The notes below the pieces were generated by a model. It worked only from the letters and a program-made list of their open reading frames with translations. It did no database searches and was not told the DNA's origin. From assembly GCA_052327205.1 (NCBI GenBank), contig CM126207.1, positions 51,770,001 to 51,834,000 of the forward strand: a stretch of 64,000 nt of DNA, written 5' to 3'. Positions within the stretch are counted from its first letter, which is position 1; every line of letters begins with the position of its first letter. Both the position numbers and the translations under genes were made by a program. Positions 17,260 to 57,278 of the stretch are shown here, in pieces. The DNA comes from Somniosus microcephalus. Its lineage: Eukaryota.

Positions 17260-18440
17260 TTGCTTGTATGCAGTTTGACCGTGTCACATTTAAGCGGGGT
17301 AACCTCTTTCTGAACATTCAGACTTCCAGCGTATCAGGAGCTTCTAGTGATGTTCATTAAGTGGCAGGTCTGAGTTTTCTGGGGGCTGGTTGTGTTCTCC
17401 AATTATTGCTGTTTCTCTTCTGAGAGGTGGCGGCAAGATATGTGCACGGCAGGGAGCCAGACTGTCTGTATTGTTTTCAGTACTCCTGTGATGATTCTCA
17501 TAGCAGTGTCAAGTTGCACGTCAATGAGATTTGCATGTGCACTCCCTGCCCACGCTGGTGCGCAATATACTGAAAAAACACGAGCCAAGGTGTCTGTCTG
17601 CAAAGTGTGAGCATCTGTACCCCAACTTGTCCTGGCTAATTTGGAGATTAAGTTGATCCTAGTCTTTATCTTGACGACAGTTTTCGTCAGATGTTGACGT
17701 GAAACTACGATCCAGAGCCACTCCAAGTTAATTTGGGAAGTCATCGTGCCTGAGTTCAGTATGACCGAAGGGAGCATTCAGGCGCTTCTTCGCATGCCAG
17801 TTGCTCAAATGAAATGCAGAGACGAACACTTTCTGAGGATTCGGATGAAGCCGCCACAGTTATAATAGTCAGCAAGTATTTTTAAGTCGTCTGCAAGTGT
17901 GTGTTACGCTTGGGCAAGAGTTGCTTGGACGGCTATCACAAGGTCATCTGCATATCCAGATGTCCTCAACTGAGTTGGTGGGATGTCACTGATGTAAATA
18001 CAAAAAAGTGATGATGCCAAGACTGACCCCTGTGGGAGCTCATTATTCAGTTGTTGAGGTCTGCTAATCGTGAGATACCGCTGAACTTGTGGTTAGTGAG
18101 CATGGCTGTTAGGCCAATGTTTGCTTGCAGCGTCGTATTCTAGATATTTTCAGCAGTAGACCGTCCCTCCCTACCACATCATATGCTCCAGACAAGTCCA
18201 CAAAAGCCACTGCTGTTTTGTGCCCACACTAATAACCAGCTTCAATGTGGGTTGAGAGTACAATTACCTGGTCACAGGAGTTCTGTCCAGGTCTAAACCC
18301 ACATTGCTCCTTTGGGTCGTAATCCCCGAAGAGTGGCATGAGTCTTTGGGTTAACATCCTTTCCAGGAATTTGCACAAAACACCCAGTAATGATATCGGC
18401 CAGTAATTTTTTGGAGCATCGGTTGGTTTGCGACTGCTGT
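17260..18440 (-). mobile_element. Vingi/Ingi-like non-LTR retrotransposon RT fragment
   Basis: ORF 17403..17777 has RINLISKLARTSWG...YCAPAW...DVQLDTAMRIITG. Upstream minus-strand remnants resemble PQGSVLA, YADD and YRPISLL. Confidence 0.65.
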
Positions 18441-18504
18441 TCTGAAAGGATCATTAGAAATATGTAAACAAAATTAATATTGTGAAGAACATTACAAAAT
18501 GTAA

Positions 18505-26175: not shown

Positions 26176-26474
26176 GAGGTGGAGACATGACGACTGAAGG
26201 CCCTGCCATTGATTGAGTGGAGGGTTGGGAATGCTCAGAAGGCCAGTTTGGTGAGATGGTAGAAGAGCAACAGAGTGCTGTGGAGGCAGGCATGGCAAGA
26301 AGAGGCAGAGAAGCTACTATGGTTCAAAAATATATATGTTTCTGTGTGATGCCACTTCTACCACATTCAGGTTAGATAAGTGACCGTTTGCCGTTTAAAA
26401 TCCATGCTGTTATGAGATTACATGGAACTTCTTTTGAAAGAAAGAAAAAATAGTAAACTTGTTTGCTTCTCCAG

Positions 26475-26683
26475 AAATTAGATAGAAGATCTTCCCCTTC
26501 TACCAGCAGCCTGGACTCTGGGAGTGAATTGAAGGAGCGACCAGTGAAAGGAGAAAGCGCACTTCAGCGCGTGGAGTGCATTGCTGGCAATACGAATTGC
26601 TGTGACTGCGGCCAGGCAGACCCACGTTGGGCAAGCATTAACCTTGGAATCACACTATGCATTGAATGTTCAGGAATTCACAG
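26475..26683 (+). CDS. ACAP2: ACAP2 exon, ArfGAP zinc finger (KLDRRSSP...[29 protein letters not shown])
   Basis: ccag|AAA ... AG|gtatta, 209 nt; ArfGAP signature CxxC-x16-CxxC-x4-R with the arginine finger. Confidence 0.97.
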
Positions 26684-27116
26684 GTATTAACATGAAAAAG
26701 ATTATAAGTTATGCTAGATTGAAAAATATTTGTGTGTATTCACCTATTTGATACTAATTGGGCTCAGTATTCAGTACTGTTGCTGCTTTTCACTGAAGCT
26801 GGATGAACAGCTTACAGGTAACTTGAAATCTTTGCTATGATTCTAATTTTGGTAGGGTGCTGGGCTCTCAATTGGAGGACAAAATACATTCAAAACTTGA
26901 GACTTGATTCTGCTCAATTGGGGAGGTTTGCAAAAGAAGATGACTAAATATGAAAAAACTACAAGAACAGAAAGATTAGCTGGACTATTACTGATTGACC
27001 ACAAGCATAATTTATTGCTGCATTGTTGAGCTTCAGTACCTTGCAGAAGTTTATCTAGTGATGAATGCCTGCATTATTTGTGTTGTACCCTGTATTAGTT
27101 TATTTTCTGTGTTTAG

Positions 27117-28908: not shown

Positions 28909-29010
28909 CTGCTGTTAGTAACACTGAGCCACGTCGGGAGTCTCTCTTCTGCCCAGATGAGCTAGACTCGCTATTCTCCTACTTTGACACCTCTTCAAAA
29001 TCTAATAGTA
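28909..29010 (+). CDS. ACAP2: ACAP2 symmetric cassette exon (AAVSNTEPRRESLFCPDELDSLFSYFDTSSKSNS)
   Basis: ccag|CT ... A|gtaagt, 102 nt, phase 1-1. The SLFCPDELDSLFSYFD motif is recalled from ACAP3. Confidence 0.85.
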
Positions 29011-29832
29011 GTAAGTACTGCACATATGGAGCTTCTCGGTGCCTGTGCTACTAAATTCATCCACTGCTTGATTCCACTTTATAGGTGCATATGTGTGTTT
29101 CTTTTGTGCTTTTGACCTCCCAAAGCATTTTAAAACATTATTTGTTCAAGTCGCATTTTCCATCATGCATTTGATTTTCCCCTTTGTATTTGTAGTCAGT
29201 GTATTTCATTGTTAACCATATTGGATATTGCAGTAAGAGTAGAAACGTGAACTGATGCATTTTGTAGCAGTATCTGTGAAATGTTGGGATGTTTGATTTT
29301 AAATTCTGGTGTGTTCTCATTTGTGATTTTGTTTTTCATCAGTGTAAACCTTATCAATATGAAGGAGCATTCTATGTTTGTGCATTCATTTTTACATTAG
29401 TAAAATATTGTAGCACCAAAAAGGTAGTGTCAGTTTCTTTTGTGTTTATAGATCCCCAGGGAACGCAGGAACAAAATTAAATAAAGTTAAACTTAGTTTT
29501 ATTTAAAAGCATTCAGAATACAGTACTTGTGTTCTGTTCTATTCTGATTGTATGTTTGTTATGATAACATTGGGCTGTTAGGTAAATGAATAACAATTTG
29601 CATTGAATATGGTTTAAAGCCTACTTTCTGTAGACTGATTAAACGCTCCTTTGTTATATCAAATAAGTCTATTAATCAAGAATATGACTGCTTGATGCTA
29701 AATATTCCACCACCTTTTTGTTCAGAAAGTATTAATCATATTCATAGAAATCTTGTTATATCAACTAAAACTGGAAAAATTATAATAGGTTTGACATGAG
29801 GCAATCTTGTTTAACTTGTCTGTTTCTTTAAG

Positions 29833-32945: not shown

Positions 32946-33735
32946 TGGTTATGGAGAATGAGCGGCCTTTACAAATTTCCCTGGGCATGCCAATAGCTAC
33001 ACCTGTTAAGCCAAAAATGTCCATTTACTCCTACTCTGCTTTTTATCCTTCAGCCACCTTCTTTCCAGCTGAGTAATTTCCTTAGAATTTGATTAATGAC
33101 CTGCCCTGTGTTGACTAGCCCATATCTAAGTGCTTAATAATGTTATCCCTTATGGCTGCTAGCAGTTTATAGTTACCTGTAACATTCATCACCCTCCAGT
33201 CCTTTGATAATTTTCTAAAAATGCTTTGGAAATAATTTATGGTAATGAAGTAAAATGCTTTGTAGAACATGACAGTACATGAACTGGTAGGACCATGGAA
33301 ATATGTTAAGGAAAGCAACCAGTAAAGGATGAACGAAGTAAAATAATACAGTTGTGTAGATGCTTTGGAACCTTGCTTGATTTATTTGGGGGGTGGGTGG
33401 GTGCAGAAAGAAACTTTGTAGAACATTTTCTCTCTGTTAAAAGGGTTGGTGGAGTTGATAATTTAGAGCCTCTAGATATTCCCTACCCTATGAAAAGGCA
33501 CCTGTCCTCCACTGTGTACCTCTCCAAAATGGCACTGCTGAAATAAGGAGCAGGGAGATAACATCTGCACTTCACCATTATCCTTGTTGTATCCTTGTGC
33601 TGCTTTGATTTGAAAAAATTGAATAATAAAGTAAAATATGTATTGTTCCAGTGTGAAATGCTCTTCAGTTCTGTTTAGAAAATTCAGTGCCTTTAATTTG
33701 TAACAAAACTATTGTACTTTGCTTCTTTACCTTAG

Positions 33736-33846
33736 GCAAGTGTGTTTATTTCTGAAGCGAGGAGCTGATCAAGGTGCATTAGATGAAGCAAGGAAGGACC
33801 CACTCACCATTGCTGTAGAGGCTGCAAATGCAGATATAGTTACATT
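33736..33846 (+). CDS. ACAP2: ACAP2 ankyrin exon (QVCLFLKRGADQGALDEARKDPLTIAVEAANADIVTL)
   Basis: ttag|G ... TT|gtgcgt, 111 nt. Confidence 0.95.
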
Positions 33847-33914
33847 GTGCGTATCACTATATTTATAGTGTTTATTCTTTATACACGGTTTTCATTCTGT
33901 TTGTTTTGGAATGA

Positions 33915-34380
33915 GGAACATGGGAACAAGAGTAAGCCATTCAGTCTCTTGAGCCTGTTCCGCCATTCATTGAGATCATGGCTGATCTGTGCCCTAACTC
34001 CATTTACCCGCCTTGGCTCGATATCCCTTAATATCCTTGGCTGGCAAAAATCTATCAATCTCCGAATTAAACTTATTAATTGAGCTAGCATGTACTGCTT
34101 TTTGTGGGAGAGTGTTCCACACTTCTACCACCCTTTGCATGGCGAAGTGTTTCCTAACTTCTCCCCTGAATGGTCTGGCTCTGATTTTAAGGTTATAATT
34201 CCTTGTCCTAGACTCCCCCACCAGCAGAAAATGTTTCTCTCTATCTACCCTATCAGTTCCTTTCAAAATCCAAAAACCGCAATCAAATCACCCTTTAACC
34301 TTCTATATATTAGGCCTAATTTACATAATCTCGCCTCATAATTTAACCCTTGGAGCCTTGGTAACATTCTGGTGAAATTC
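33915..34380 (-). mobile_element. CR1 3' fragment
   Basis: ORF 33994..34266 has VGESRTR...QRVVEVWNTLPQKAV, followed by the CR1 tail. Confidence 0.85.
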
Positions 34381-37223
34381 TTGCAGATTGTAGAGGCAAA
34401 GTCCAAGGATGTACTTTTTGTTCATGCTACTACTGTTTCATATGTAGAGTAAAATAATAAATTCATCAGAATCTTCTTGGATGTTTTACTAAAATACATC
34501 AATTGTCTTATCAGTATGGAGACTTCAAGTTGGATCTTCCTCCCTGATTGGCCATTCTGGGGATATTGCTGACTTTGCATTATTTAGGAACTATAGGAAA
34601 CCAGGAGCACTATAACTTCATACTGGTCAGAAAACTGCTATGAAGCCACATGTTTTCTCAGCCAATAATGTGGTTTCACAGGGCTCCAGATTGTCCCTTT
34701 GACAGGTTAAAGGCTGTTTGCAATTGAGCCACTTGTAGAGATGGAGATCAAACTCCAGGCTCTGCATGCTGGAAAAAAAATCAAACCGGATTCCTGTGAG
34801 ATTCTGTAGATCAAAAGTGCTCTGCTTAGACTCCCCTTTAACTAGTCTCTGGGGAAAAAAAAAATATTAGCTTGGTAATACTGCAGAACCAGAAAAACTT
34901 GTAAACGATATTTGTGATATATGTCTTGTAACAACTTAATCTTTCAACGCAGCACCTCCCTTTTTAATTCAAGATTTGATCAGACAATTGAAACTTTTAT
35001 TTTGACCATAGAATTCAACATGTAGATTTAAACCAGAGGTGGCCAATTTATGTTGTGAGCCACATGTGGCTCCTTGTGGCTAAAGTGTGCTTCTTTGCTT
35101 AGCCACAGCCACTGATATACTGGCAAAGGAGAAAACCAGAAGGAACACTGCCACTTTTGTCAAAATCACAAACCATCAGTTCAAATCTGCATTAGAAGAC
35201 AAGCCAGATCCACTGCTGGATTACCACTAGATCATTCGCAATAATGGACTTCAGACACTAAATTTTTTCAGTAGAATAGGGAACCATCACCGTACCCAGC
35301 AGATCCTGAGAATTGCATACAAAGCATTTTACTTGATAATCTCCATGATGTGCTTTGGGTTGCTTTTCTAAGTTAAAGCTACTATTTAAATGCAAGTTGT
35401 TGATCTACAAAGTACTGATTGAAGAGTGACCTGAGTGTGAGACTGGAAGACATACAGAATCTCAGGTACTCAATAAACTCAGCTGGAATCTTTCTCTGGT
35501 GGCTCTTGATTCCCTGCACTGAAGAACAGTGATTTCAGAGAACAAGTTACTACATCTTCTAAATTTCAAGTCAATATTGAGCACTGAACAGAAATGACTT
35601 TGAAATGTCCATCATCTTCAAGTTGGATTATTTAACCTACCAGAATAAGTGATGGCTGAGGTTCTGTTGTAGACGTCAGAGCTGGGCTGTAGTCCTCAAT
35701 GGATTATCTGTGCCTTCTCTCTCTTTCCTCTTGTAGGATCATTCACAAGATACAGGTAGAGGAAATTTCACACCTTCAACATGATCTCTGGAAGTTTAAC
35801 TCACAATGCTAGGTTGTGTTGCTAAATTATATTTGCTTTTTTGATTCCTGCCTCATACTGTTTAGACATGATGAGCGCCAAAACAGCATCAAGACAACTA
35901 ACGCCCATGGGTCTCTTCAGATTCCCTCTTCACAGCTTCTGTTCCACACTTGTAGCATGAATGCCTCCAATTTATCTTATCTGTATTGAATTCCCATTTG
36001 CAACTGATCAGCTCAGGTACAAACCCTGTGTCAAGCTCTGTGTGTAAGGCCTTCGCCCACAGTCTAATTTAGCTTGGATTTTGTGAATTTAACTGCCTTG
36101 CATTGAGACTGCATTTTTAAAGGAATTTTTCATACAATATTTTATCATATCTGGTACTTTACAAAAGGCATTTTGAAAGTCTAGGTACACTCCTCATATA
36201 GCGAGCCCACCCCCCCCCGCCGCCTTTCCTGTCAATTTGGGATGCCATTTCAAAAAAAGTCCAAGATTGGTCAGCAAATCTTTATCTTTTCAGGCACCAT
36301 CAGCTGTCACTTTTTATGTGATTTTCATACAGGTATTCTTCCATTTTGTTTCTGATTACTTGTTATTGTCAATTAAGGTTCTGTTGCCCTTTAAATTGGC
36401 AATTACATTTGCCTGTTACTATCCTGTCTAAACCTCCCTTGTGTTTATTGATTTCCTCAAAATGACTCAGTGCCTCATAAATCGGCTCCCTTGCCACTAA
36501 TTGCCTTGGGGCATAGTTCATCCATCGCAGAGATTTATTTGTAAATTGGGTCTTGAAAGTACCAGACTTTCCAAGCAGAGTTTCCTGCTCTCTTTGAAAC
36601 ACTCCTCGCTTCTGAGAAACCTTCAACCCTGATGGTTTGAAATATGAATTGAACAGATTTGCCCTCTGGTGGAGAAAGAGTAGATGTAAACCACTGGGAT
36701 GAAACATTTCAGCTGTTGTAGCTGAAAACTTTTTTCGGTAGTTTCTTATTTTTTGAAAGAAGTTTGACATTCACGTTCAAAGTCTCCCCCACCCTCAATC
36801 TACCCTTCTTTCTCATATCCTACTGTTAGGCCCTGTTAGATGGGGTTTTTATAAGCTAATATTGCTTGTCATTTGAGGTCTCCGTTGCTTTCTCTGGTTA
36901 AAGAAGTGAAGATATAATCCAGAATGAGATCTTCCATATAATAGTGGGGGAGAAATCATCTGACAAATGACGAGTCATAAAAAGATAATGACCATACCTA
37001 CAGTAGATAGTTGAGCAATTGTTCTCATTTATCGTAGTATGTTAAATGTCATCAAAATTGGAGAATTTTTTTGTTGTACAGGTATACGTATTTCCAAAAG
37101 GTACATTTTATTGTCACCAAACAAAATACCAGAAATAATTTTGAGGTGCTATTGATGTTTGGTCCTATCTCATCTCATTTCACTACACTGCTCAGCAAGT
37201 TAATGTACTTTTTGTTTTCACAG

Positions 37224-37282
37224 ATTACGTCTAGCAAAGATGAATGATGAGATGCGAGAATCTGAAGGCCTTGGACAGTCAG
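37224..37282 (+). CDS. ACAP2: ACAP2 penultimate coding exon (LRLAKMNDEMRESEGLGQS)
   Basis: acag|A ... TCAG|gtcaat; the phase-1 donor matches the acceptor at 43819. Confidence 0.92.
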
Positions 37283-37368
37283 GTCAATATTCCAATAACA
37301 GTCATACAGAGATGCAATATAAAAAATGCATGCAGGAATTTATTAGCTTGCAACTAGAAGATTCTTGA
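37283..37368 (+). CDS. ACAP2: ACAP2 read-through alternative C-terminus (GQYSNNSHTEMQYKKCMQEFISLQLEDS*)
   Basis: The frame stays open past the weak donor to TGA at 37366-37368. The peptide resembles the recalled ACAP3 end TELQFRRCIQEFISLHLEES. Confidence 0.8.
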
Positions 37369-37829
37369 GCCTTGTTAAAATTAAAGGGTTATATTAACAT
37401 CTACTGTGAGGGGCCGGGGGAAGGAATGGGAGCCTCATGACCTTGTCATTTGGCAGGTGATGCCGTACTTAAATTGATGTATTTCACCCAATTGTAGGAC
37501 CAATATTTTGACCAGCTAAATCTCAAGAAATGGAGTATCTCTTAATCAGAAAAAAGTAGATACCAAAGTTATTTGGCAAATATAAGCAATGCACCCCAAA
37601 AGTTTAAAACATTCAGTATTTACTTAAGAGCTGGGTTCCTTTAGTTATATTTTCCAGAAGATTTTGATCTTCGACATTGCATAGCTTGAACTTTTAGTAA
37701 AAATTAGGTGATACTTAATAAAGTATTGAAATTGAGAGATAGTGAATGTTATTGCTCTGTTGAGTCAGAAATTGACTTTAAAAGGTAAAAATAGGACATT
37801 AAAGGAAATTATTTATGGAGTGATGAGTT

Positions 37830-38240
37830 CAGTTTTTCCCCCTAGTTTTCTCTCTCCCCAACCCCCACAAAAAAAGGCTCTGACTCTTGCTTAGTGTGGT
37901 TAAATGGGCACCAACAGCCCTCTGATACCTCACCCAAATCACCATACTTTCTGTGCGAGTCCAGACAGAAAAGTAATCAACCATGGAGTGCCTCACAGCC
38001 AATTCCAATCCTGTCCTTATCTGATGTCCGTACACTTGCACTTCCCAGGAGGAGTCACTGGATAACAATCAGGAGCAGGAACTCTGGCTGATTTTTTTTA
38101 TGCCCAGGTACCTGGAAGGCAATATTAGCACTCCCCTAACTCAACATGGAGTGGGGATCAAAGCTGAGACCTTATGATCGGAATGTTTTGGTACCACATC
38201 AGTTGGTGCATTTACCCAGTTGGCCATCGGAGGTGCATCA
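37830..38240 (-). mobile_element. LF-SINE-like element
   Basis: cactggataacaatcaggagcaggaactctggctgatttt is the reverse-complement homolog of about 22155-22195. Confidence 0.5.
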
Positions 38241-41200
38241 GTTTCTAGAGGTTTTTTTTCCTGTTATATGAAAGTTGTTTTCTTCTTGCACTTTACCCCC
38301 AACATGTCATTCTTGATTGAAAAAGTTGTAAAATTTGTGTTCCTGGATCATTACCTATGATGCTGTTGAACTAGTTACTGGGAAACGCTGAACAGCAGCA
38401 TGAGTTCACTTGCCCTAGAATTTTCCTCAGGGAATGGTCTTTTGATTTGATATTCCCTTGGAATGCCATGGCTGAAGTCACTGGGAAGAATTCATGGTCT
38501 ACCATGGTGCCACAATGCACAAACATAACATATTATGGCACTTGGCTGCCTGGTGTGGATATAGTTTAATTATTGGACAACACTAAGAAATTCTTGCCAT
38601 TGAACTTTAAAAAAAAATATATAAACATCAGTGTTTAGTTTTAATTATATTCCTATAAAGAACTGCAGTGTAACTAGAAAATATTGCAATTTCAGTCTGT
38701 TTTTCTGTGGTGTTACTTTCATTTGTCAGGAAAGGACAGTAAGATGTGAACATTTTAAGTATTATAGATGGTGTTTTCAGTTCTTTGGGTTTTTTTTTAT
38801 TAAGTTAATTCAGATGCTTGGCCTGTTCAAAAATAAACCAATATTTTTCTCTGAATTTCAGCAAGTTTTTATGAAGTCATTTCACTTTGTGCAGATAATT
38901 TTGTTTAGTTTTACTTTTTATCAATTTAGCATTTATAAAGGGTTCCCAGCATTGAAATGTGACCCATACAGAATTAGGTACAGTAGTGACATTTTAAATT
39001 CATTTGGAGACATCAACAATAACAGGGAAATCATAAAATGGGGAAATTATTGCAGAAGTATAAAAGGTATTTATAGTAGGTGAGGAGCTATGTTGGGAAG
39101 TTATTAGAAAACATTGTATTGTTATTTGAGATTCTGTAACTAGCAGTAACAATTCTGTAGCTATAGACCATATCTTGTTGATAGTTATAACTTTACTATG
39201 GTAATTACTCAGAGTTCTGTAGTCTACTAGTAAAAGACCACAAGATAAATAATTATGCACTGTTGAAAGCCAAAGCCATATGCAACATTCTGTGCTGCTT
39301 TTATATTTAGGTTTTAGTTATCAATCACAAAAGCCAAATTGGTGCTAGTAAATACATCTGATTGTTTCCTATCATTGCTTTTATTCTTGTCTGTACTGTA
39401 TGTGTCTTTTTGAATGTATATTGTGTGCCTTTTTGTGTTCTTAATCTGGGATGCTAATTGCAGTATTACTGTATTTGTGTATGTACTTTCTGCACTTTAA
39501 ATGCAGCATTACTGTAAAAAGAAATGCAGTTACTGATGTAAGATTTTTAAATCTTAAGTATGAAGACTGCAAGTTCATTGCCACTAAATGTTAAGTATGC
39601 TTTAAAAAATAACAGCTGATAGGATTGACCTGCATTAACATTCCATAGTTTCTGCTACTTTAGCAATCTGTAAAACATGATCCATCTCTTGAGGTAATGA
39701 GTTAATTAAAACTCTTGCAGTTGTAATAGTATTTTCAGAAATTAATTGTTCCCTCAAAACTCATCCCATAACTTCTAATATGACTATATTAGCTTCACAA
39801 AAGGTTTCCAATTATTTATGCTGAGTGTGAGCTCACTAAATGCATTTAAACTGCCCGTAAGTATCATTCCATCTTTTTGGTTTACAGGCTGATTCTCTTA
39901 AAATAAGCCTTAACTTCAGATACTTTTTTGAAATATTTTTTCTAACGTATGTAGGTCATCTTTAGTGGCATGTTAACCTGTTCTTTTACTGAATGGCATA
40001 ACGTTTCAGTACTTGCCTGTAAATTACTTAAACTCTGCAGGTTATTGCTGCATCTTAATATAAAGTTGTCAGATATTTAAAACAACTTTGTCAAATTTGC
40101 AAATGTTAACGTATAGTCAGATCTACATGTGATGGAATACAGTTTTACGCCCTAGGTCCAAATGGACAAAAAATATATTTATTTGTGTTCAAACTTGCAG
40201 GTAATTTTTGATTGTATTTAAATGTAAGCAACAAATTAGAACTTGCAAATGATGAATTGTTACGATTTTGCTTCCACCAGGGTTGTATATGGATCTGATT
40301 GTGCATGAAATTCTTGCCTAACTATATATTCCTGGTTAAAAGCAGAACTCCCAATTTGTTCTTAACTTAGTCGGCGCTAATGCCATCATTCTGGTTATAA
40401 AGCATGTCTTGTTTTCACTAAACCTTAGTATTTCCCTTATCTACTGATTTATATCACTGCTTTTAAGATAAAATAATTTCGGATTGACTGACTGCAAAAG
40501 AGACTTGTTTAGTTCAAAAAAATTAAAATGAACCCAATAATGCTACTGTTTTTCAGTTTTCACTTTCAAATGGAAGAATTAATTGAAATGCTGGCATAAT
40601 TGGCAACAAAATGAAACACGGCACTGTTACATTACTATGTGTAGAGTGCAAGTGCTCCTAAGTCCTTATTTGTGACTATCATTGGTCTCTTTCTAAACTA
40701 AATATCCAACCTACTTCAGTAAACTATGCTTAAGATTTTGAGTTCTGAAGAAATTATTTTTTTAAACTTTTTAAAATCAGTTTCATAGCATTACAGTTAG
40801 ATTAGTATGATAGGAACATGAGATTAATTGAATTACATCAATATATGGCAGTGATTTTAATTATTTTGAAAATGTTAAATTAAGATAAATTTAATTGATT
40901 AATGAACCGTTTATAATAATGTATACCATCAACTAGAATATGCATGTGGTCTGAAAAATGCTGTTACAATTTTGGTTAGGTTTGCAGAAATGGGGTTGGT
41001 CTTTGTTTATTTAAGGTATCTTGTTTATTCACTTTTGCCAATTGGTTCTCCTCTTCCCACTCTTCTTGACTGTTTCCAAACTCAACACACACCATCTACG
41101 ATTGAGGGGACAAGCTGCTCCCAGCCCCCCCTCGGTGCCTTTCAGAAGTTAGCTCCTACAGGATGTGTAGCAATAGCATCAGGGGGTGTCTCCTTTGCAT

Positions 41201-42734
41201 TTTCCTTCTGTTTGTGGGTTTGCACTGGTCTCTATTTGGTGCTTGTCCAAAGCAATGCTGATAAGATTCAGAATTTGGTAGTTTAGGAAATTGTGGTCAC
41301 ACAAATACAAAGTACCATTAAGTGGTGAGATGAAGCTTTGATGCTCTGCTGAGCTTTCAAACCTCTGCTGTATTACTGTGGCGTGTCAGTGAGTAGTGTT
41401 TCCCCACAGGGAGAAAAAATAAAAGGGAGAGTATTTCCTGGGTTGTTGATTCATGTGTAGCTTGAGTGATTCAGAGCAACATTGGTGGAGGCCTGGCAGC
41501 AGGGTAACCATGGACTGCAAAGGCAAAGAGGAGGGAAATGTTTTTGGGGGTGGAGGTAAAATTAGAGGGTAAATAACTTCCCCAAAACGTGCACACATAT
41601 CTTAAGTGTGGAATAAGTGGTGAACTAAAGAATTTGGGAAGATTTGAACCAAGTGTTTAAAGGTTGAAGCTATCATTGCATTCTTTCTTATAAGCTGTCT
41701 CTTGATTCTTGCACTCTTGATTTCAATTTTGCTGCTCTGAGGTTCATGCAGGTACAGTAGTATTACCTTGTGTGGTGTATATATTTCTTTTTCTCCCAGT
41801 ATTGTAAGCTATTTACTGGTCATTGCCAGAAATTCTTGTATATGTCTTTTTTTATATCAGTATTTTAAAATTAGCCTCCTTTTATGCTGTTTCCAAACGT
41901 TTTTATCTAAATCTGTTGACACCCAACATCTTTTTTGAATTCTCCACAAATTAATTATTTTAAGTCAGTGAGAGATGGCAAATTATGCTCAATAAACATT
42001 GTTATAGTGCTAGCTAAGTTATATTGAAAAATCCCATTAGCCTTTGATATTTTGACACTTTCAGCATTGTGTGTATGTTTCTATATTTCCCCTTTGTTGT
42101 TGATAGTGAGATATTCTATGGAGGATGATGAATTACTAGGTAATTTACCATCCCATGAAGTGCCATGTCCTAGCTCTAATTCAAAAATTAAAAACTCTGT
42201 AAATACAAAAAATACTGACTATCTGATGCAGGGTTGTCATACACAAATTTGGACTCGAGATTCAATTCGGGAGCAAATAATTAAGTTTAATTCTTGAGGT
42301 TTGATGTCATCTGAGCTTCTTGATTGGATTCTGTCCTGTAGTCCACTACATTGCCCTCTGTAGAGTGGATCAAAGTATACTGCTGTATTTGAAAAGTTAT
42401 CCTCCTACCTCAGACTATAGCTGTTTGACATGCCTTGCCAATACTTTGCAAAACATTTCACAAAGAAAATATCAGCAGCAGCTTTTATAGCATCTTTAAT
42501 GTTTTACATTGTTGAAGATATGCTGGCAATGTTTGGATAAGTAGGAGGGAAACTACATGAAGTCAGTCCCATCGAGGTGGACTATACAGGAGAGATGATG
42601 TCATAAAATGGAGCGTTTGATCGAGTTGAATATTGCAGAAAGGTCAAGGGTTAATGTATCAGTGTCACAAATGGCAGTGTTGGTTTTCACCAGGGCCGTC
42701 TCCATGCTATGGGCAGCGTGGGAGTCAAACTAAA

Positions 42735-43170
42735 GGGACATGAACAGAGACAGTTATGTGGAAAGACTGGAGAAGCTGGGGTTGTTCTCCTTCAATCAGA
42801 GAAAGTTAAGGAGAGATTTAATAGAGGTGCTCACAATGATGAGTGGTTTTGATAGAGTAAATAAGGAGAAACTGTTTCTAATAGCAGGTGGGTCGGTAAC
42901 CAGAGGACACAGATTTAAGATAATTGGCAAAAGAACCAGAAGGGAGATGAGATTTATTTTATGCAGCAAGTTATGATTTGGAATGCACTATCTGAAAGGA
43001 TGATGCAAGCAGATTCATTCATAACTTTCAAAAGGAAATTGGATACATACTTGAAAAAGAAAAATTTTCAGGACGATGTACAAGGAGTGGCAGAGTGGGA
43101 CTAATTGAATAGCTCTTTCAAAGATCTAGCACAGGCACGATGGCCTCCTCCTGCGCTGTAAGATTCTATG
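42735..43170 (+). mobile_element. CR1 3' fragment
   Basis: ORF 42740..42976 has SYVERLEKLGLFS...DLIEV...TRGHRFK; the tail ends tggcctcctcctgcgctgtaagattctatg. Confidence 0.85.
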
Positions 43171-43180
43171 ATTAGCAATA

Positions 43181-43507
43181 CAGGAAACTTTGGTTTATCC
43201 GGAGGTTGAATGTCCGGAAACCTCGATCCACCGGCAGAAATCAGGAGCCGTTTTGTTAGGTTTTTTTTCTTCTCGTGGCTTTTTTTTTCAACAGTCAGGC
43301 TCTGCAAAGTCTCTCTGAAGCTGTTGCTAAGCTACAGAGACGCTTCCAAGGTTACGGGCCGACTGTTTAGAAGCTGTTGCTAAGCAACAGTGTTTGTTGC
43401 CAGATACGGAGCTGAAAACCTCCGTATGCTTCAACATTAGCGCTGGTTTGTCCGGCAGTTTTGATAGATCGGCAACAGCTCAGTGCCGGATATCACAAAG
43501 TTTCCTG
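43181..43507. mobile_element. Tc1/mariner-type MITE (copy 2, inverted relative to 552-870)
   Basis: TA|CAGGAAACTTTGGTTTATCCGG ... CCGGATATCACAAAGTTTCCTG|TA; the interior is the reverse-complement homolog of copy 1. Confidence 0.88.
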
Positions 43508-43818
43508 TATTTGTGTTCTGGATTAATTACTTCAACCACAAAAGCATTCAGTAGATGTTCAGGATAAATTGACACAATAATTATACAAAGAACGTGCATG
43601 TTTATAATAATAAATAAAGGAAGAAGCAGATTTTATAATTCTATGAATCACAATTTATTTTGTTTTTAATTTTGTGGAGTTTACAAAACCTATTGTATAG
43701 CGTGTACTGTAGATCTTAGTTGGTTGTACAAATTAAAATAATATTTTTGAAATACAAATTTATTGTATCAAATTATTTGCTTCAGTGACTCAACAACTTT
43801 TTAATTTTTTTATTGCAG

Positions 43819-43919
43819 GTGATGCGACCTACCAGGATATTTTCAGAGACTTTTCCAACATGGCCTCTCATAACCCTGAAATATTAAACCGATTCCAGCG
43901 GCGATCAGAGACTGATTAA
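43819..43919 (+). CDS. ACAP2: ACAP2 terminal coding exon (GDATYQDIFRDFSNMASHNPEILNRFQRRSETD*)
   Basis: ttgcag|GT ... TAA at 43917-43919; matches the ACAP2 C-terminus GDETYQDIFRDFSQMASNNPEKLNRF. Confidence 0.95.
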
Positions 43920-46900
43920 TTTTTACTGCATTCCTCACCTTGAGAGCTGCAATCATTCTTTTGGTGCAATCATCTTGAAGCATATTCATCAGTTCATTTC
44001 ATTATATATACCAAAAATAAATTGAAGTTTTGAGTTTTAAAGAAAACAATTATAAATGAAGGAGCTTTTGCTTATATATCTACAAGCAGCTGCAGTGATT
44101 TATTCTACTCTGGAGTACAGTGTCTATGCAAATACCCAACCTTTGCGTTTTCTATTTTGTTTCAATGTTGAGTTGAAGCTAAAATCTTCTGAGGTGTTTT
44201 CACCACTGGGAGATGTGCAAATAGAATGGGTGTTCAAGTTGAACAGAAGTTCTGAAATTTTGTGTGCCCAAATTATCGGAATAATAATTCCACTTCTATA
44301 CTCAGCCCATGATTTTCCATCCATTAAGCTGAATGGTCAGAAAGTCATGAACACCAAGTATTTTTACCCCATTATCTTTAAAAATTGCTCTAAAACTATC
44401 ATAGATACTGTGATGATTCAGCTGCAATGTGTACATCTCTGAAAAGGGACACACTGGTAATATACAAGTGCTGTTGGGAGCAATAAATTCATATTAGGAC
44501 TGTGCCCATTTTAAATTGGTTTCCTTTTACAGAATAGAAAATGCCGTTTGTCTATTGTTTCAGGAAATATTTTATCACATTTTTAAAACTTTGTACATTC
44601 TTTATCTCATTCAAGAAACTTTAATTTGTAGTTTTTTATATATCTTGTTTTTAAATACTTTGCCTTCTACCCACAGTTGGTTACAATAAATAGCTACTGA
44701 TTTGGTGTACCATGTACATAACTTATATCTAATTTTATTTACACCTAAACATAAAATCCAGTGTATTAAGATAAACTGCTCATAGGAATTGGGATTACTG
44801 GATGACTAGCTGCATATTGCACCATTGAATTGAATTAATTTACGTAGTGAACAGTATATCGTCAGCAACAGACCAGTTTTTTTTTTTAGTTCATATCTTC
44901 CGGATGGAAAACAAATCGATTGTCTAAATTTCTGTACAATACCCCTGATGAATATAAACAAATGTTGCCTACTTCATTGCCAACAATCAAACCATCTTGA
45001 GTACATGGAAATGCAAATAAGTTAATATTCTTAATTGATTTTGTTTACCAAAGTTTAAAGAGCTAGATGATGGCAGCTTTTTAAATATATTGCCATCTAT
45101 CAGTGCTACTACAAAAGTAACACCTGGTGTATCCCATGTTTTTATGCTATAAAAAGCTAATGATAAGTAGAACTTTTTGAAATTAAAATAAAACATGCAG
45201 AATAAGGCTTCCTGGAAAATCACATTTTTAATCCTTTTTTTTCCTGCAGAAGTAATATAAATATATCAATAGATGTTCCTGTGAAATTTCAGAATATGTT
45301 CAGAGATGGATAAAACTCAAACTTTTTTGGTGATGCAGTTTTCTATTTTGTTTTAGCTGTTGTTTTGTTTTAGTACATTTGTACAAAAGAATTTAAGTAT
45401 ATCATTAAAACCTCAAGGAAAATGTATTGAAAACATATGAACTACATTATAAGCTTCAAAGCAGTTGAGCATTGTAACATGTACATTACTTGTGTTTCAG
45501 TTTAATGTTTGATGTGACCTTTTGTGATGCCAGTAAGCATTTGAAACTGCTTTTTGGCCAGTAAGCATTAGCGTGTGGAGTTATTGTGGATTTGGCACAT
45601 AATCAGATCCGTTCGATCCAAAGCTGCACAATACTTCCCCGTAGTTTTGAAACTGAAATAAATGTATTCATTCTCATTTGTTAATGGAATTGCATCTCGT
45701 AGTATATTTATTGTATATATCAACTTTTCTGTATTGAGTATTTTTGTTCACATTGTAGAATCGTTATATAAAAAGTTCCCCACAAGCTTGTACTACTTTA
45801 CATTCCATGAACGGAAACTAAATATGCATTTAATATTTAAAACTGCAGTAGGTCTTTTGTATTACAGAGGCTGCATTACATTTTTGAGGTTTAACTTACA
45901 ATTTTCTAGAATTTTTGAAGTAGGTCCAGGCTGATATTGTCCAGAATCCCAACATTTTCTTTTGTCTGGCGAGCATTAATAACGTGGAATGGAAGGAAAA
46001 GTGGGGGAAGTAAGGCATTATAGGAAAGTTAATGTATGCTGTGGGTTGTACTTATTTCTTTTAAGCCAGTTTTTGCATGCACCCTGGGGGGGAAAAAAGG
46101 TTTCTGCAAACCATAATGTCCACAGTAACTAACTACAAGCATGATGGTTCAGCCAATTCTTTGTGGTTGTCATTGCACCTTTCTGACCGTCAGTTTACAT
46201 CTTGGTGGGAATCACCATTTACATCTGCAGATATGGGTATCATAAGTTCTTAGCTGCGATGTGTTCCTGTGTTTCACAAATAGAGGATTCCTCTAACTGT
46301 TGGAAAAAGTGAGTGTGATCTCAAGTGTGAGCACCTACAATTAGTATGTTTTGGATCAATATAAGAACTGCAGTGGAAAATAGTTTTTTAAACTTGTACT
46401 TTCCTGCCATATACAACAGACTAAGGAGCAGTCCACAAAGCTGGCAATGAGTTACAGTAAGCTACAATGCTGGAGTGTCGGCCTGTTCATTGGAGGCCCA
46501 AGTTCAAATCTCAGCCTTGATTTACGATTCCAGTTCAGATTTTGTATAGGTACAAGTTTGACTATTTTGACAAAAGAAAATAGTCAGGGGAGGTGTCCAT
46601 TCCCATGTAACTCAAATGCCTATCAGTCAGCTTGACTGAGGAGCAGCATTGTCTGTTTGCATAAAGATGCTTGCCCTATTTTCTCAACTTTGGAGGATAG
46701 CATGATGTAAAGAGAAATAAGCGATGGGTTAGATTTTCCATTCATTCATAATCCAAATCTATCCATAAATACTCAATAGCAAATCATGTAAATACTATTG
46801 CATTTTGACAAACTGGTAAATAAATGTACCAATAAGGTTTTGTGTAGCCAGCCTTTGCTGCTGTTTAAATAGAGAATGGTTTCCTGTACATAGTATTGGA
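43920..46900 (+). other. ACAP2: Probable ACAP2 3' UTR with multiple poly(A) signals
   Basis: AT-rich and free of recognisable TEs. AATAAA at 44016, 44482, 44685, 45657 and 46819. The end point is uncertain. Confidence 0.6.
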
Positions 46901-48860: not shown

Positions 48861-50239
48861 AATAGAAAATTAATAAGCTGATTATGATGTGCACAAATAA
48901 TGCAAGTTGGGAAACAACAAGCTGTGATTGTGCTAAGGGTGGCTGTGGTGTGTCCCTTTGTAACTCAAGAGGATAAGTGCTGTGGCCAAAGGATTATCTT
49001 CATTTTCCTCCATGAGTGCAATCTGGTTATATTGTAAATGCAATTACTGCCTCAATCCCAACATATGTGAGAACTGTGACAGATCAGACTTTCAAGGAGC
49101 TATCTTGGGGTATTCTAGAAGGTATGCAGGATACATGTGCTGTTGCTAATACATCCCAAAGGAGGAAGTTGCAGCATGTAAATGGGGAAGAAACATTATC
49201 AGAAAAGATGTATACAGCTCCTTGCTGGGAGCAGTGTATTGAATGAGTCTACTTGTGTGGAGAGAGACAACAGCACCCTGACTTCAAAATATAAGCATAC
49301 TAAGCAACATAACTACCATAAGGCAACTGTACTCCCATAATCTGATTAGCTGCAGAGAGATATCTGTAGAAACTGGCAAACAAAGTCCATAAATCAAAAG
49401 ATACAAGTCAATGTTGCATGTTGAGTTTCTTTTGTACCAATTATGTGCATTTCCTATTGTTTGTAACACTTTGGTGTCACACTAACTGCAAATTTCTGTA
49501 TCATACCAAATATTCCCCACCTCAATTGAAATTTCTTCCACTTGATTGACTGATATGCAAATTAATTAATTATGATTGAAACATTAATTGTAAGTCAGTT
49601 ATAAGTTTAAAAAGATGAGCCCATCAAATCGCAAAACACTTAATTTCTTTTGCCTTTTCCACTAAAATTTATCCACTATGTTGAAGGCCTCCACCTCTTC
49701 CAAAAAGCTTGTGTGGACTTGAGGATTTTTGCTTTGAGCTGTGCAGTTATTAGCTGAATTTAGATTGTGCAGTCTAAGCATCTTGATACCATGTTTAGGC
49801 AGGCCAGTAAATGAGCAGCCTGCCCACCTGAAACGGGTGTAGTGCTTAAGTATGCAAATCAAGGTCCTATGCCAGTTGTGACTAATTGGTTAGCTCTTTC
49901 AAAGAGCCAGTACATGTACAATAGGTTGAATGGCCTCTGCTGTGTGATGTAAAATTCAGGTACAAATGGCTGGAGCATGCACTATATACACTTACCTAGT
50001 TGTACTAGAAATTGAGCAGCTGAACAAATGGACCTTAAAGGGACTGCTGGAGAATGCTAACAAAATGAGGCCCAAGAAATTTGAGTTATTTTCTTGGGCC
50101 CACAAAAAAACTCTCGCCCATTCAAGGCCCTTTCAGTTATCACCTCCCAATTTCTTGCCCTCCTTGACAGGTTCAGGCTTCAGGCAGGCCTGGAGCTGGA
50201 GCTGTGTTGACTTTTGGGGGCAAGTAAAATTTCTCCCCC

Positions 50240-51525
50240 ATTGCCAAGAACTAGCCAAGCTGTCCAGTACAGCTATAACACTGGCATCTACCCTACAATG
50301 TGGAAAATTGTCCAGGTATGTCCTGTCCATAAACTGCAGGATAAATCCAATCTGGTCAATTACCACCCCATCAGCCTACTTTCAATCATGATGGACAGTG
50401 TTGTTGACAGTGCTATGAAGTGGCAATTGCTCACCAATAACCTGCTCACCAATGCTCAATTTGGGTTCTGACGACTACTCAGCTACAGACCTCTATAGCC
50501 TTGGTCCAAACAAGGACAAAAGAGCTGAATTCCTGAGGTGAGATGTGAGAGACTGCCCTTGACATCAAGGCAGCATTTGACTGAATGTGGCATCAAGGAG
50601 CCCTAGTAAAATTGAAGTCAATGGGAATTGTCTTCAGTGGCTGGAGTCATAACTAACACAAAGGAAGATAGTTGTGGTTGTTGTTGGCTAACCACCTCAG
50701 GCCCAGAACATTGCTGCAGGAGTTCCTCAGAGCGGTGCCTAGGTCCCACCATCTTCAGCTACTTCATCAATGACCCTGCTTCCATCACAACGTCAGAAGT
50801 GGGGATGTTTGCTGATTATTGCACAGTGTTCAGTTTCATTTGCAATTCCTCCAATAATGAAGCATGCAGGAAAACCTGGACAACATTCAGGTTTGAGCTG
50901 ATACGTGGCAAGTAAGTTTCATGCCACACAAGTGCCAGTCAATGACCATATCCAACAAGAGTGTGTGTAATTACCTCCCCTTGACCGTCAATGGGATTCC
51001 CCCACAATCAACAGTGACCAGAAACTTAACTGGACCAGCCACATAAATACTGTGGTTACAAAAGCAAGTCAGAGGCTAGGTATTCTGCAGTGAGTGTCTC
51101 CCCTCCTAATTCCCCAAAGCCTTTCCACCATCTACAAGGCACAAGTCAGGAGTGTGATTGGAATACTCTCCACTTGCCTGGATGAGTGCAGCTCTAACAA
51201 CACTCAAGAAGCTCAACAACATCCAGCACAAAGCAGCCTGCATGATTGGCACCCCATCCATCACCTTAAACATTCACTCCTTCCACCACTGGTGCACCAC
51301 GGCTGCAGCCTGTACCATCTACAAGATGCACTGCAGCAATTTGCCAAGGCTTCTTTGACAGCATCTCCCAAATCTCTACCACCTAGAAGGACAAAGGTAG
51401 CAGGTACATGGGAACATCACGGACTGCAGCGGTTCAAGAAGGTGGCTCACCACCACCTTCTCGAGCAATTCGGGATGGGCAATAAATGCTGGTCTTGCCA
51501 GCCACGTCCCGTGAATGAATTTTTT
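50240..51525 (+). mobile_element. CR1-clade LINE family copy 3 (3' half, decayed)
   Basis: NYHPISLLS, QFGF, GPTIFSYFIND, MFADY, MEYSPLAWMSA; same 3' tail as copies 1 and 2. Confidence 0.85.
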
Positions 51526-52334
51526 AAAAAGACAAATAGTATCTTAATTTAAGCTCTCTTCAAAATTAGGAACAAATTGGTTGAATTTTGAAAACTCTAA
51601 TCATGAGTTTTTGCTGACAGCAATGTTCATATTTTCTTATAGCTGTGAAAGAGAGGCACATCTAGGAACTGAACAGAAAATATCAGATTCAGTGTTTGCA
51701 TAAATCATTCAGAATGTTATAAACAAGTGCTGCCAGCTATGGGATCTCTCCCATCCCCCCCCCCCCCCCCCCCAAACAACAGACAGCCCCACATCCTATC
51801 TCTTCCTTCATTGCTGACAGACACTAGGAATCCACCAGATAACCAAGACTCACTTTTATGCCCAAGTTACATACACCACACCTCTGGTTTGCTTTCCACA
51901 GTTCTACCAAAACCAGATTCCCAATTCAGTGCCGCCAGATCGAAGGATAATACCTCCACGATACACCCCCCCCCCCCCCCAAACCCCCCACACACACACA
52001 ATAATGCATGGCATTATGGAATTTAATCCCCAAAACATCAGTAAAAAAAAATAGTATTTCAAATATATATTTATATATATATATTGACTGTCAGTCACTG
52101 TAAATGAGTGGTCCTGATGTTATCCTATCAAGACCTACAGTATATTGTTGTAAAGCAGCAATTCCTCTGATTCAATGCAAGACCATGGAGATCTATTGTA
52201 TCATTAAAAATCTTACAGCTGTGTCCACTTTCTGTCTGCAAAACGTTACTTTTGTCTTTGTCACATTTGTGCCAACTTTAAAATAGTAAACCTCAATGTC
52301 AACTTGCTCCTGTCATTAAATTAATTATCGGTTC

Positions 52335-55102: not shown

Positions 55103-55826
55103 CTTCTCTTCCTAGGCAGTCCCTCGGAACCGAGGATGACTTGCTTCCACACTAAAAATGAGTTATCAGGTGACTGATGAGTCCAATGCGGGACCTACAG
55201 TCTCTGTCACAGGTGGGGCAGATGGTGGTTGAAGGGGCGGGTGGGTGGGGTGCTTGGGTTGACGTGTGCTCTTTCTGCTGTTTGCGCTTGGCTTCCGTTT
55301 GCTCCCGGCGAAGAGACTCGAGGTGTTTGGCGCCTTCCCGGATGCTTCTTCTCCGCTTTGTGCAGTCTTGGGCCAGGGATTCCCAGATGTCGGTGCAGAT
55401 GTTGCATTTTTTTAAGGAGGCTTTGAGGGTGTCCTTGAAGCATTTCCTCTGCCTACCTGGGGCTCTCTTGCCGTGTTGGAGCTCCGAGTAGAGCGCTTGT
55501 TTTGGGAGTCTCGTATCGGGCATGCAGACGATGTGGCCCGTCCATCGGAGCTGATCGAGCATGGTCAGAGCTTCGATGCTGGAGATGTTGGCCTGAGCGA
55601 GAACACTGATGCTGGTGCACCTATCCCGCCAATGGATTTGCAGGATCTTGCGGAGGCAGCGTTGGTGGTACCTCTCCAGTGCTTTGAGGTATCTGCTGTA
55701 CATGGTCCATTTCCCTGAAGCATACAGGAGGGCGGGTATCACTACTGCTCTGTAGACCATGAGCTTAGTGCTGGGTTTGAGGTCCTGGTCTTCAAACACT
55801 CTCTTCCTCAGGCGACCGAAGGCTGC
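55103..55826 (-). mobile_element. 5'-truncated RTE-clade LINE
   Basis: AFGRLRKRVF...TKLMVYRAVVIPALLYAS...RLPKQALYSEL...CPTCDRDCRSRIGLISH. 11-bp TSD AAGTTTCTGGT at 55092-55102 and 55827-55837. Confidence 0.92.
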
Positions 55827-55984
55827 AAGTTTCTGGTGAGCAGGTGCTGTCAACCAGAGGATTGCAGAGTGCCAGAAGAGGATATTTTGTTCCTGAAGCT
55901 GGAATGGGGTGTGGCCAAATACAGAGAGGTCAGGGTGTGAATGGGAGGGGAAGTTAAAGTGACGAGGCACAGGGGAGGAAAAAA

Positions 55985-56400
55985 AGACTTGCATTTATAT
56001 AGCACCTTTCATGACCTCAGGTGTCCCAAAGCGCTTTACAGCCAATTAAGTACCTTTGAGTGTAGTCACTGTTGCAATGTAGGAAATGCGGCAGCCAATT
56101 TGCACACAGCAAAGTCCCACAAACAGCAATGTGATAATGACCAGATAATCTTTTTTTGTTATGTTGATTTGAAGGATAAATATTGGCCAGGACACTTCTT
56201 CAAAATAGTGCCATGGGATCTTTTACATCCACCTCAGTTTAACGTCTCATCTGAAAGACGGCACCTCTGACAGTGCAGCACTCCCTCAAGCACTGCACTG
56301 GAGTGTCAGCCTAGATTTTTGTGCTGAGTCTCTGGAATGGGACTATGAACCCAGGAACATCTGACTGAGAGGCTTGGGTGCGACCAACTGAGCCACGGCT
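55985..56400 (-). mobile_element. Full-length Deu-domain SINE with tRNA-derived head
   Basis: The minus strand begins agccgtggctcagttggt (A box) ... gggttcatagtccc (B box); Deu body and L2-type tail match 48472-48860. Confidence 0.82.
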
Positions 56401-56771: not shown

Positions 56772-57278
56772 ATGGGACTGTGGAGAATGATTGTACAGAC
56801 TAAGGCGAAGTTCACCCCATTCCGCTCCTATCAGTTTGTCCTGTTATTTGCAGCTGCATTGGCAGTTTTTGCCTTTTACTACTTTGGATCCAACCACGAA
56901 AATTTTTCCAGCACCACCAGGAGAATGAAAGAAAACCAGGCAGGGAAGAGCGGACCGGGCGATGCTCCACTGGCAGTGAATCGCAGTGGGAAAAAACCGG
57001 CAGAATCTCAAGAAAGTGCTGCAGCCGTCAACGGCGAATCCGAGAATTCGCCGGGGAAAGAGACGATGCAATTGCATGCTCTTATGATGTTTACCAAAGT
57101 AGACAGAAACTACGGTCTCCAAGAAAAATTTACGGTTGCCATCAAGTCGATGGTAAAACACGCAATGTTTAAAGATGACGAGGTGCTCCATCTGCATTTT
57201 GTTGCTGATGTAGCCAGCAAAAAAATAGGAGAACCGCTCCTGCAGCAGCTGCTGCAAGCTGCTACCTTCAATTACCAG
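56772..57278 (+). CDS. XXYLT1: Xyloside xylosyltransferase 1, coding exon 1 (type II membrane anchor, stem, start of the GT8 domain)
   Basis: acaATGg Kozak; MGLWR...LLFAAALAVFAFYYFGS..ENFSSTTRRMKE...HALMMFTK...EVLHLHFV; CAG|gtacct donor after 169 codons; syntenic with ACAP2. Confidence 0.93.

What the first reader, a model, noticed from the sequence alone, without database searches (positions are those of the whole stretch)
37224..43919. One gene, two paralog-type C-termini: ACAP3-like by read-through, ACAP2-like by splicing
Seen: a weak donor (CAG|GTCAAT at 37282). Reading through it gives GQYSNNSHTEMQYKKCMQEFISLQLEDS*, and splicing to 43819 gives GDATYQDIFRDFSNMASHNPEILNRF. From memory, the first resembles the ACAP3 terminus and the second the canonical ACAP2/ACAP1 terminus. 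Inference: the ancestral ACAP gene had both alternative ends, later emphasised differently among paralogs, and this locus keeps both.
Basis: partly seen in the sequence, partly recalled or inferred. Interest (0 to 1): 0.75.

Follow-up and report, generated by a model that had tools for sequence, protein, structure and literature searches.

The report
Two ancient alternative ends of ACAP2
A shark ACAP2 gene can end in either of two short protein tails, both seen in spliced transcript assemblies of related animals and kept from sharks to mammals; its sister gene ACAP3 has the same two ends, so the switch likely predates the split of these genes, and it may change how the protein binds its partners.

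Summary
The window holds ACAP2 (tree; XXYLT1 neighbour). Reading through the donor at 37282/83 gives a 28-residue tail A; splicing to 43819 gives tail B. Transcript contigs of related animals show both forms: one splices 33846→37224 and runs on past the donor. A distal donor at 41751 is also used. Tail A is 25/28 identical between shark and mammals and ends 69 of 88 database hits, so it is already annotated as predicted RefSeq isoforms. ACAP3 in this genome has the same donor (CAG|GTCAAT) and both tails (tail A pN 0.19, pS 0.98), as do annotated ACAP3 isoforms. Tail A was seen only in jawed-vertebrate ACAP2/ACAP3. ACAP1 and a fourth paralog here encode only B. Both tails are predicted helices. 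Tail B lies inside the crystallised Rab35-binding fragment, so the swap may tune binding; this is untested. Ten literature searches (one on NMD) found no description of the two ends. Verdict: real, annotated but apparently unstudied; a new example of splice forms being partitioned among paralogs.

The parts
33707..33846 (+). Upstream coding exon (last ankyrin repeat); start approximate, donor at 33846 exact
   Evidence: tblastn; junction 33846->37224 GT..AG in contigs of X3, X7, X11
37224..37282 (+). Shared exon part (end of the helix after the last ankyrin repeat), ending at the proximal donor CAG|GTCAAT
   Evidence: Sequence; junctions
37283..37368 (+). Tail A coding segment, reached when the proximal donor is not used; stop TGA 37366-37368
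   Evidence: Translation; 69 of 88 homologs end in this tail type; spliced contig runs across it (X7 record 25); pN 0.19 vs pS 0.98 against ACAP3
37369..41751 (+). 4,383-nt stretch that is 3' UTR in the tail-A form and intron in the tail-B form; holds AATAAA at 37717, 38832, 41418
   Evidence: Contigs of X2 cover 37255-37665 and 37861-41746; hexamers; their use as poly(A) sites is untested
41749..41757 (+). Distal donor CAG|GTACAG (cut after 41751) that joins the extended exon to the last exon
   Evidence: Junction in one contig of X2 and one of X7 (record 30): two organisms, two studies
43819..43919 (+). Last exon coding part, tail B; stop TAA 43917-43919
   Evidence: Translation; junction 37282->43819 in X2, X3, X11; matches PDB 6IF3 and the ACAP1 structures by sequence
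43920..45784 (+). 3' UTR of the last exon; end approximate
   Evidence: Contigs of X2, X3 and X11 stop at 45779-45784; AATAAA at 45657

Best explanation
ACAP2 has an alternative 5' splice choice at its second-last exon that swaps the last ~30 residues for one of two conserved tails, each predicted to be a helix, and this likely tunes partner binding next to the Rab35-binding ankyrin repeats. Shown: use of the donor at 37282 gives tail B; passing it gives tail A, followed by up to 4.4 kb of extra 3' UTR that can be spliced at 41751 to the same last exon. Shown: ACAP3 has the same donor and both tails; the ACAP1 and fourth-paralog loci of this genome encode only B. Inferred: tail B is the ancestral animal end; tail A arose in early vertebrates from the first 86 bases of the last intron, before ACAP2 and ACAP3 split; it was kept as an option in ACAP2, became the usual end of ACAP3 (probably the only one in mammals), and is absent or lost in ACAP1. 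Inferred, about 0.4: the tail modulates Rab35 or another partner rather than switching binding off, because the three Rab35 contact residues I could read about lie upstream of the switch. Inferred, about 0.4: tail A is neural-enriched, by analogy with ACAP3.
For: Transcripts: X7 record 25 splices 33846->37224 and continues to 37595; X2, X3 and X11 join 37282->43819; X2 and X7 join 41751->43819 (RNA status is the tool's guess, but GT..AG joins imply spliced RNA). Conservation: 69 of 88 hits end in tail A, from chimaera to mammals. One squirrel ACAP2 cluster has 2 of 11 isoforms with A and 9 of 11 with B. Paralog: the C25 locus is ACAP3 (98% to shark ACAP3; clade 100/99) and has donor CAG|GTCAATATCC, tail A, and a B exon 21,667 nt on. 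ACAP3 with B is annotated in sharks, rays, chimaera, frogs and Varanus (49 hits). Selection: pN 0.19, pS 0.98 over 28 codons; 17 of 27 differences at third positions; 23 of 84 identity after the stop against 57 of 84 before it. Polarity: of 67 representatives with a visible tail, 4 have A (3 by pattern plus P0260 by eye; three named vertebrates, one unnamed), 44 are B-like and 19 neither; named B carriers include coral, sea cucumber, molluscs, annelid, arthropods and hagfish. Structure: tail A helix at model residues 150-168, pLDDT 60-77; tail B helix 146-158, pLDDT about 50. The 6IF3 construct is residues 597-770, 159 of its 174 residues are in the library chain and alignment reaches 759, so at least part of tail B (747 onward) is ordered in the Rab35 complex.
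Against: No transcript support from the window's own species label: raw-read runs X23 and X24 gave no depth on either exon. No protein-level evidence for tail A. No function tested. The read contact residues N610, N691 (PMC6358971, passages) and D721 (PMC7322127, passages) are shared by both forms, so the tail may not matter for Rab35. The tail-B control model was poor (pTM 0.63) and 6IF3 was not among its 50 listed matches, so the models say nothing on tail packing. The representative library shows one protein per 50% cluster, so an invertebrate or cyclostome tail A could be hidden; only one hagfish gene and no lamprey were seen. Loss of B in mammalian ACAP3 rests on one named protein lacking the donor-encoded GQY (P0260) and on absence. 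Tissue of the runs is unknown.
Confidence: 0.8

Rival explanations
1. The tail-A transcript is mainly a regulatory dead end: its stop lies upstream of an exon junction (41751->43819), so nonsense-mediated decay removes it and the switch lowers ACAP2 output.
For: The stop is 4,383 nt upstream of a junction seen in two organisms, which meets the classical rule for decay.
Against: Tail A is under protein-level selection (25 of 28 shark-mammal), which a degraded product would not need. Stops more than about 400 nt upstream of a donor trigger decay less efficiently, though not never (PMC13043745, passages). AATAAA sites before 41751 offer junction-free ends.
Confidence: 0.1
2. Tail A is made mainly by intronic polyadenylation (a composite last exon), and the 41751 splice is a minor by-product. 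The protein outcome is the same as in the best explanation; only the RNA route differs.
For: AATAAA at 37717, 38832, 41418; listed X7 and X1 contigs cover 37224-39165 in pieces. No counterpart of the distal donor was found in the ACAP3 intron.
Against: X2 has a 3,911-nt contig from 37861 up to the distal donor that joins the last exon; X7 has the same join. Contigs cannot show RNA ends.
Confidence: 0.35
3. Tail A arose before all four vertebrate ACAP paralogs split (before the genome duplications) and was lost twice, in ACAP1 and in the fourth paralog.
For: ACAP2+ACAP1 in 678 of 1000 bootstrap trees, ACAP2+ACAP3 in 41. The ACAP1 locus (C38) starts its intron with GTCAGTATCC against GTCAATATCC in ACAP3, and still reads GQYP; anchored DNA similarity was reached by 43 and 21 of 1000 shuffles after skipping 6 nt.
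Against: The AU test does not reject ACAP2+ACAP3 as sisters (p 0.151). The C38 similarity is not significant after skipping 10 nt (232 and 79 of 1000) or at protein level (594 and 3319 of 5000). C37 shows no trace. The one hagfish gene seen ends in B.
Confidence: 0.5
4. Tail A is a diverged tandem copy of the tail-B helix, so the two ends are homologous alternatives for one binding site.
For: The best ungapped profile register aligns EMQYKKCMQEFISL with DATYQDIFRDFSNM, pairing Y, an acidic residue and F; 153 of 5000 column shuffles scored as high. Both are predicted helices.
Against: p about 0.03 on short helices can reflect shared helical periodicity; no structural superposition of the tails was obtained.
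Confidence: 0.25
5. ACAP2 and ACAP3 share tail A through recent gene conversion or convergence.
For: None found.
Against: Synonymous sites are saturated between the two tail-A segments (pS 0.98), as for tail B (1.03); each tail A follows its own paralog from chimaera to amniotes.
Confidence: 0.03

Closest known systems
Predicted RefSeq/UniRef ACAP2 isoforms ending in tail A (e.g. whale shark XP_048460154.1, squirrel XP_047419483.1)
   Same: Same read-through tail at the same position; other isoforms end in tail B.
   Different: These are automatic gene models. I found no paper on them, and they carry no statement of kinship with ACAP3. No record labelled human appeared among the 88 hits.
ACAP3 (centaurin beta 5)
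   Same: Its usual C-terminus is homologous to tail A (14-17 of 28 identical). In sharks and frogs the gene has both ends.
   Different: The window gene is ACAP2, not ACAP3. A mammalian ACAP3 (P0260) has lost the donor-encoded GQY.
ACAP2 778-aa form in complex with Rab35 (PDB 6IF3)
   Same: The construct ends in tail B.
   Different: No solved structure matches tail A beyond the shared 21 residues.
Partitioning of ancestral splice forms among duplicated genes (splice-form subfunctionalization; concept recalled, no paper read)
   Same: An ancestral gene with two alternative ends; paralogs differ in which they keep.
   Different: Partition is incomplete: two paralogs have kept both ends since the shark-bony fish split.

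Membership tests
ACAP subfamily of ArfGAPs | BAR-PH-ArfGAP-ankyrin architecture | tested here: met
   Exons in the window and upstream match proteins with these Pfam domains; ArfGap PF01412 on window 26457-26687.
ACAP2 ortholog | Groups with tetrapod ACAP2 in a tree built without the tails | tested here: met
   97/95 support under LG+C20; 95.6/97 under LG+G4.
ACAP2 ortholog | XXYLT1 as downstream neighbour (human gene order recalled, not from a call) | tested here: met
   Window 56772-57257 matches xyloside xylosyltransferase 1, E 1.7e-10.
ACAP3 ortholog | Groups with ACAP3 | tested here: not met
   The C25 locus, not the window, falls in the ACAP3 clade, 100/99.
Functional alternative C-terminal isoform | Both forms present in spliced RNA | tested here: met
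   Contigs of related organisms; not shown for the window's own species label.
Functional alternative C-terminal isoform | Purifying selection on the alternative coding segment | tested here: met
   pN 0.19 vs pS 0.98 between paralogs; 25 of 28 residues shark-mammal. Ortholog dN/dS not computed.
Functional alternative C-terminal isoform | Protein detected; tissue-regulated; distinct function | not testable with these tools
   No proteomics, tissue labels or assays.
Splice-form partition among paralogs | Ancestor had both forms | tested here: met
   For the ACAP2/ACAP3 ancestor: same donor, phase and homologous tails.
Splice-form partition among paralogs | Reciprocal loss in the paralogs | tested here: inconclusive
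   ACAP1 and the fourth paralog lack A here, but loss versus never-had depends on an unresolved tree; loss of B in mammalian ACAP3 was not checked on DNA.
AS-NMD switch | Stop more than 50 nt upstream of an exon junction | tested here: met
   4,383 nt; junction.
AS-NMD switch | Transcript stabilised when NMD is blocked | not testable with these tools
   No such data.

The most novel reading that the evidence does not exclude
A helix born from intron sequence (or copied from the old last exon) before the vertebrate genome duplications gives ACAP2 a hidden, neural, ACAP3-like form whose tail replaces an ordered helix of the Rab35-binding fragment, so that a splice choice rewires Rab35-Arf6 crosstalk, while mammalian ACAP3 is the same form made permanent.
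Probability: 0.25. Interest if true: 0.6.

Novelty: new member of a known kind. Interest (0 to 1): 0.33.

Why it matters
The ACAP2 structure with Rab35 uses the tail-B form, and the reference human protein listed in the nomenclature paper is the 778-aa form (PMC2542466, passages). A second end that is almost unchanged from sharks to mammals, and that is the ACAP3 end, would mean the two genes overlap more than their reference sequences suggest. It gives a direct test of whether a splice choice changes Rab35 recruitment of an Arf6 GAP. It also dates the birth of a protein tail in vertebrates. The mechanism class is familiar and the isoforms are already in databases, so the surprise is moderate.

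Tried and rejected
Expression in the window's own species label: no RNA holder listed; raw-read runs X23 and X24 gave zero depth on the exons at 37224 and 43819, uninformative. X14 showed no exon junction. Contig depths were not used to rank isoforms. Pfam has no family for either tail. Structure models: the tail-A model aligned to 6IF3 only up to model residue 151, rmsd 3.5; the tail-B control was poor and 6IF3 was not among its 50 listed matches; tail packing could not be judged. Relic of tail A in ACAP1 (C38): marginal only. Counterpart of the distal donor or of UTR elements in the ACAP3 intron: none beyond the two coding segments and repeat-like matches. Paralog order: unresolved. 'Weak donor': not shown by a consensus count. 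Primary papers on the Rab35/ACAP2 interface (Lin 2019, Etoh and Fukuda 2015) are not held; a search for two recalled interface residues returned 0 papers. Earlier scan findings near this place or by sequence: none. An early notebook count of 71 of 88 tail-A hits was corrected to 69 of 88.
Full report
Observation. The exon begins at 37224 and the donor CAG|GTCAAT cuts after 37282. Reading on gives a 28-residue tail (tail A) and a stop at 37366-37368. Splicing to 43819 gives tail B and a stop at 43917-43919. The donor lacks the +3 purine and +5 G but matches 7 of 9 consensus positions, against 6-8 for seven other donors of the gene, so 'weak' is unproven.

The gene. Exons from 16585 to 43919 match BAR-PH-ArfGAP-ankyrin proteins of cartilaginous fishes. 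The genome holds four such genes, on contigs C6 (window), C25, C37 and C38. In trees on 404 columns without the tails, the window groups with ACAP2 (97/95), C25 with ACAP3 (100/99), C38 with ACAP1 (98/97) and C37 with a further fish paralog (100/99) (20 of the 31 rows; gappy, unnamed and redundant rows were dropped; one search gave the same four groups). The downstream gene matches XXYLT1, the neighbour of human ACAP2 as I recall it.

Both ends are transcribed. Eight runs were laid, of 24 listed. In contig runs of related organisms, whose RNA status is the tool's guess, X2, X3 and X11 join 37282 to 43819. One 887-nt contig of X7 splices 33846 to 37224 at GT..AG and continues to 37595, so a spliced molecule crosses the donor. 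X1 and X2 have contigs from 37255 into the intron. The tail-A message can therefore carry 4,383 nt of extra 3' UTR and a junction behind its stop. X14 showed no exon junction, and the two raw-read runs under the window's species label had no depth on these exons, so they are uninformative. Contig depths were not used as expression levels, and tissues are unknown.

Tail A is conserved and selected. A search with the read-through peptide returned 88 proteins; 69 end in tail A and 19 in tail B. About nine of the 69 are teleost ACAP3-type; the rest are ACAP2-type from chimaera, sturgeon, gar, teleosts, frogs, crocodile and mammals. The window's tail matches gibbon and crocodile at 25 of 28 residues. 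A squirrel cluster has 2 of 11 isoforms with A and 9 with B. The isoform is thus already annotated by prediction. No record labelled human was among the hits.

ACAP3 has the same design. C25 has the donor CAG|GTCAATATCC, a read-through tail 16 of 28 identical to the window's, and a B exon 21,667 nt downstream. Between the two tail-A segments pN is 0.19 and pS 0.98; identity falls from 57 of 84 to 23 of 84 after the stop. The C25 tail A is 98% identical to annotated shark ACAP3, and 49 hits to its B exon are ACAP3 isoforms of sharks, rays, chimaera, frogs and Varanus. One shark has both on a contig of the same length (P0095; P0217, P0218). Teleost ACAP3-like proteins with B appear. A mammalian ACAP3 (P0260) keeps tail A but not the donor-encoded GQY, which fits loss of the splice option; this was not checked on DNA. 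C37 reads four residues to a stop; C38 reads GQYP and then unrelated sequence.

Which end is old. Among 148 new representatives from the profile search, 67 show the region after the last ankyrin repeat: 4 have tail A, 44 are B-like, 19 neither. Thirty proteins were looked up by name. B-type carriers include Acropora, Holothuria, Pinctada, Plakobranchus, Paralvinella, a scorpion, ticks, a millipede, Ciona (divergent) and Eptatretus. The A carriers are Tamandua, Tetraodon, Silurus and one unnamed protein. So B is ancestral in animals and A looks like a vertebrate novelty. The limit is that one protein stands for each 50% cluster, so rare isoforms are hidden. Whether A predates the ACAP1 split is open: ACAP2+ACAP1 has 678 of 1000 bootstraps and ACAP2+ACAP3 41, but the AU test does not reject the latter (p 0.151), and a relic in C38 is marginal.

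How it most likely works. Shown: donor choice swaps the tail and the 3' UTR. Predicted: each tail forms one helix after a short linker. The two helices align weakly, pairing Y, an acidic residue and F (153 of 5000 shuffles). The Rab35/ACAP2 crystal construct spans 597-770 and includes tail B, at least part of it ordered. ACAP2 binds Rab35 through three parallel helices (PMC9308819, passages); N610, N691 (PMC6358971, passages) and D721 (PMC7322127, passages) are contacts, all upstream of the switch. I recall D756 being named as an interface residue in Lin et al. 2019; it would lie in tail B, opposite the E of QEF in tail A, but I could not see that paper and the search found nothing. The likeliest reading is modulation, not loss, of partner binding (about 0.4). 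ACAP3 is strongly expressed in brain (PMC6358971, passages), which suggests but does not show a neural bias for tail A. The junction behind the tail-A stop could invite decay, but stops far upstream in long exons escape partly (PMC13043745, passages) and the peptide is selected.

Literature. Ten searches of the held library (on ACAP topics; 99 on NMD) gave no title or abstract on alternative ACAP2 or ACAP3 C-termini. I read keyword passages only, in PMC6539230, PMC9308819, PMC7322127, PMC6358971, PMC7793921, PMC7730309, PMC11691468, PMC2542466, PMC13388229, PMC13043745 and preprints 10.1101/2023.10.19.563178 and 10.1101/2022.04.02.486809. The last names ACAP2 as hosting an islet microexon; the one before names an ACAP2 'neojunction' in glioma without coordinates in the passage seen, so I cannot say whether it is this event. 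No supplements were read (bioRxiv supplements are closed); splicing tables there, and subscription journals, may list the event.

Verdict. Real and old, already annotated, apparently unstudied. The new parts are the shared dual architecture of ACAP2 and ACAP3, the polarity (B old, A vertebrate), the distal donor, and the overlap of tail B with the Rab35-binding fragment. New member of a known kind; interest 0.33.

Noticed in passing
G000:C37:21967458-22067543 (- strand; L006, L008-L011, L028-L034): A fourth ACAP paralog that groups with pike and butterflyfish proteins (one named 'ACAP2' by NCBI), apart from ACAP1, 2 and 3; humans have three ACAP genes (PMC2542466, passages).
   Followed up: partly
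window about 28909-29011: A cassette-like exon (RRESLFCPDELDSLFSYFD) present in 154 of 158 ACAP3-like but only 47 of 88 ACAP2-like fetched proteins: a second ACAP3-like feature that seems optional in ACAP2. A TGCATG lies just upstream of its acceptor.
   Followed up: partly
P0252, P0257, P0258: Three frog ACAP3 models carry tail A and tail B in tandem: either a third splice form or a gene-model artefact.
   Followed up: no
P0052-P0054: Frog ACAP2 tail A runs 12 residues past the usual stop.
   Followed up: no
window 37327-37332: A TGCATG (Rbfox-type element, motif recalled) sits inside the tail-A coding segment, 45 nt after the donor; it needs the Met that mammals replace by Ile, so it is not conserved there.
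   Followed up: no
window 56772-57257: First coding exon of XXYLT1, same strand, about 13 kb after the ACAP2 stop.
   Followed up: yes
window 351-13600, 17400-18450, 42340-43590, 50200-51550, 55150-56000: Many LINE/SINE-like fragments (reverse-transcriptase-like frames; very high repeat depth). The stretch 37369-41751 is nearly free of them, while the intron after 41751 is not.
   Followed up: no
G000:C38:50708903-50708912 (L003): The ACAP1 intron begins GTCAGTATCC, one base from the ACAP3 donor region, and reads GQYP; possibly a relic of tail A, statistically marginal.
   Followed up: yes
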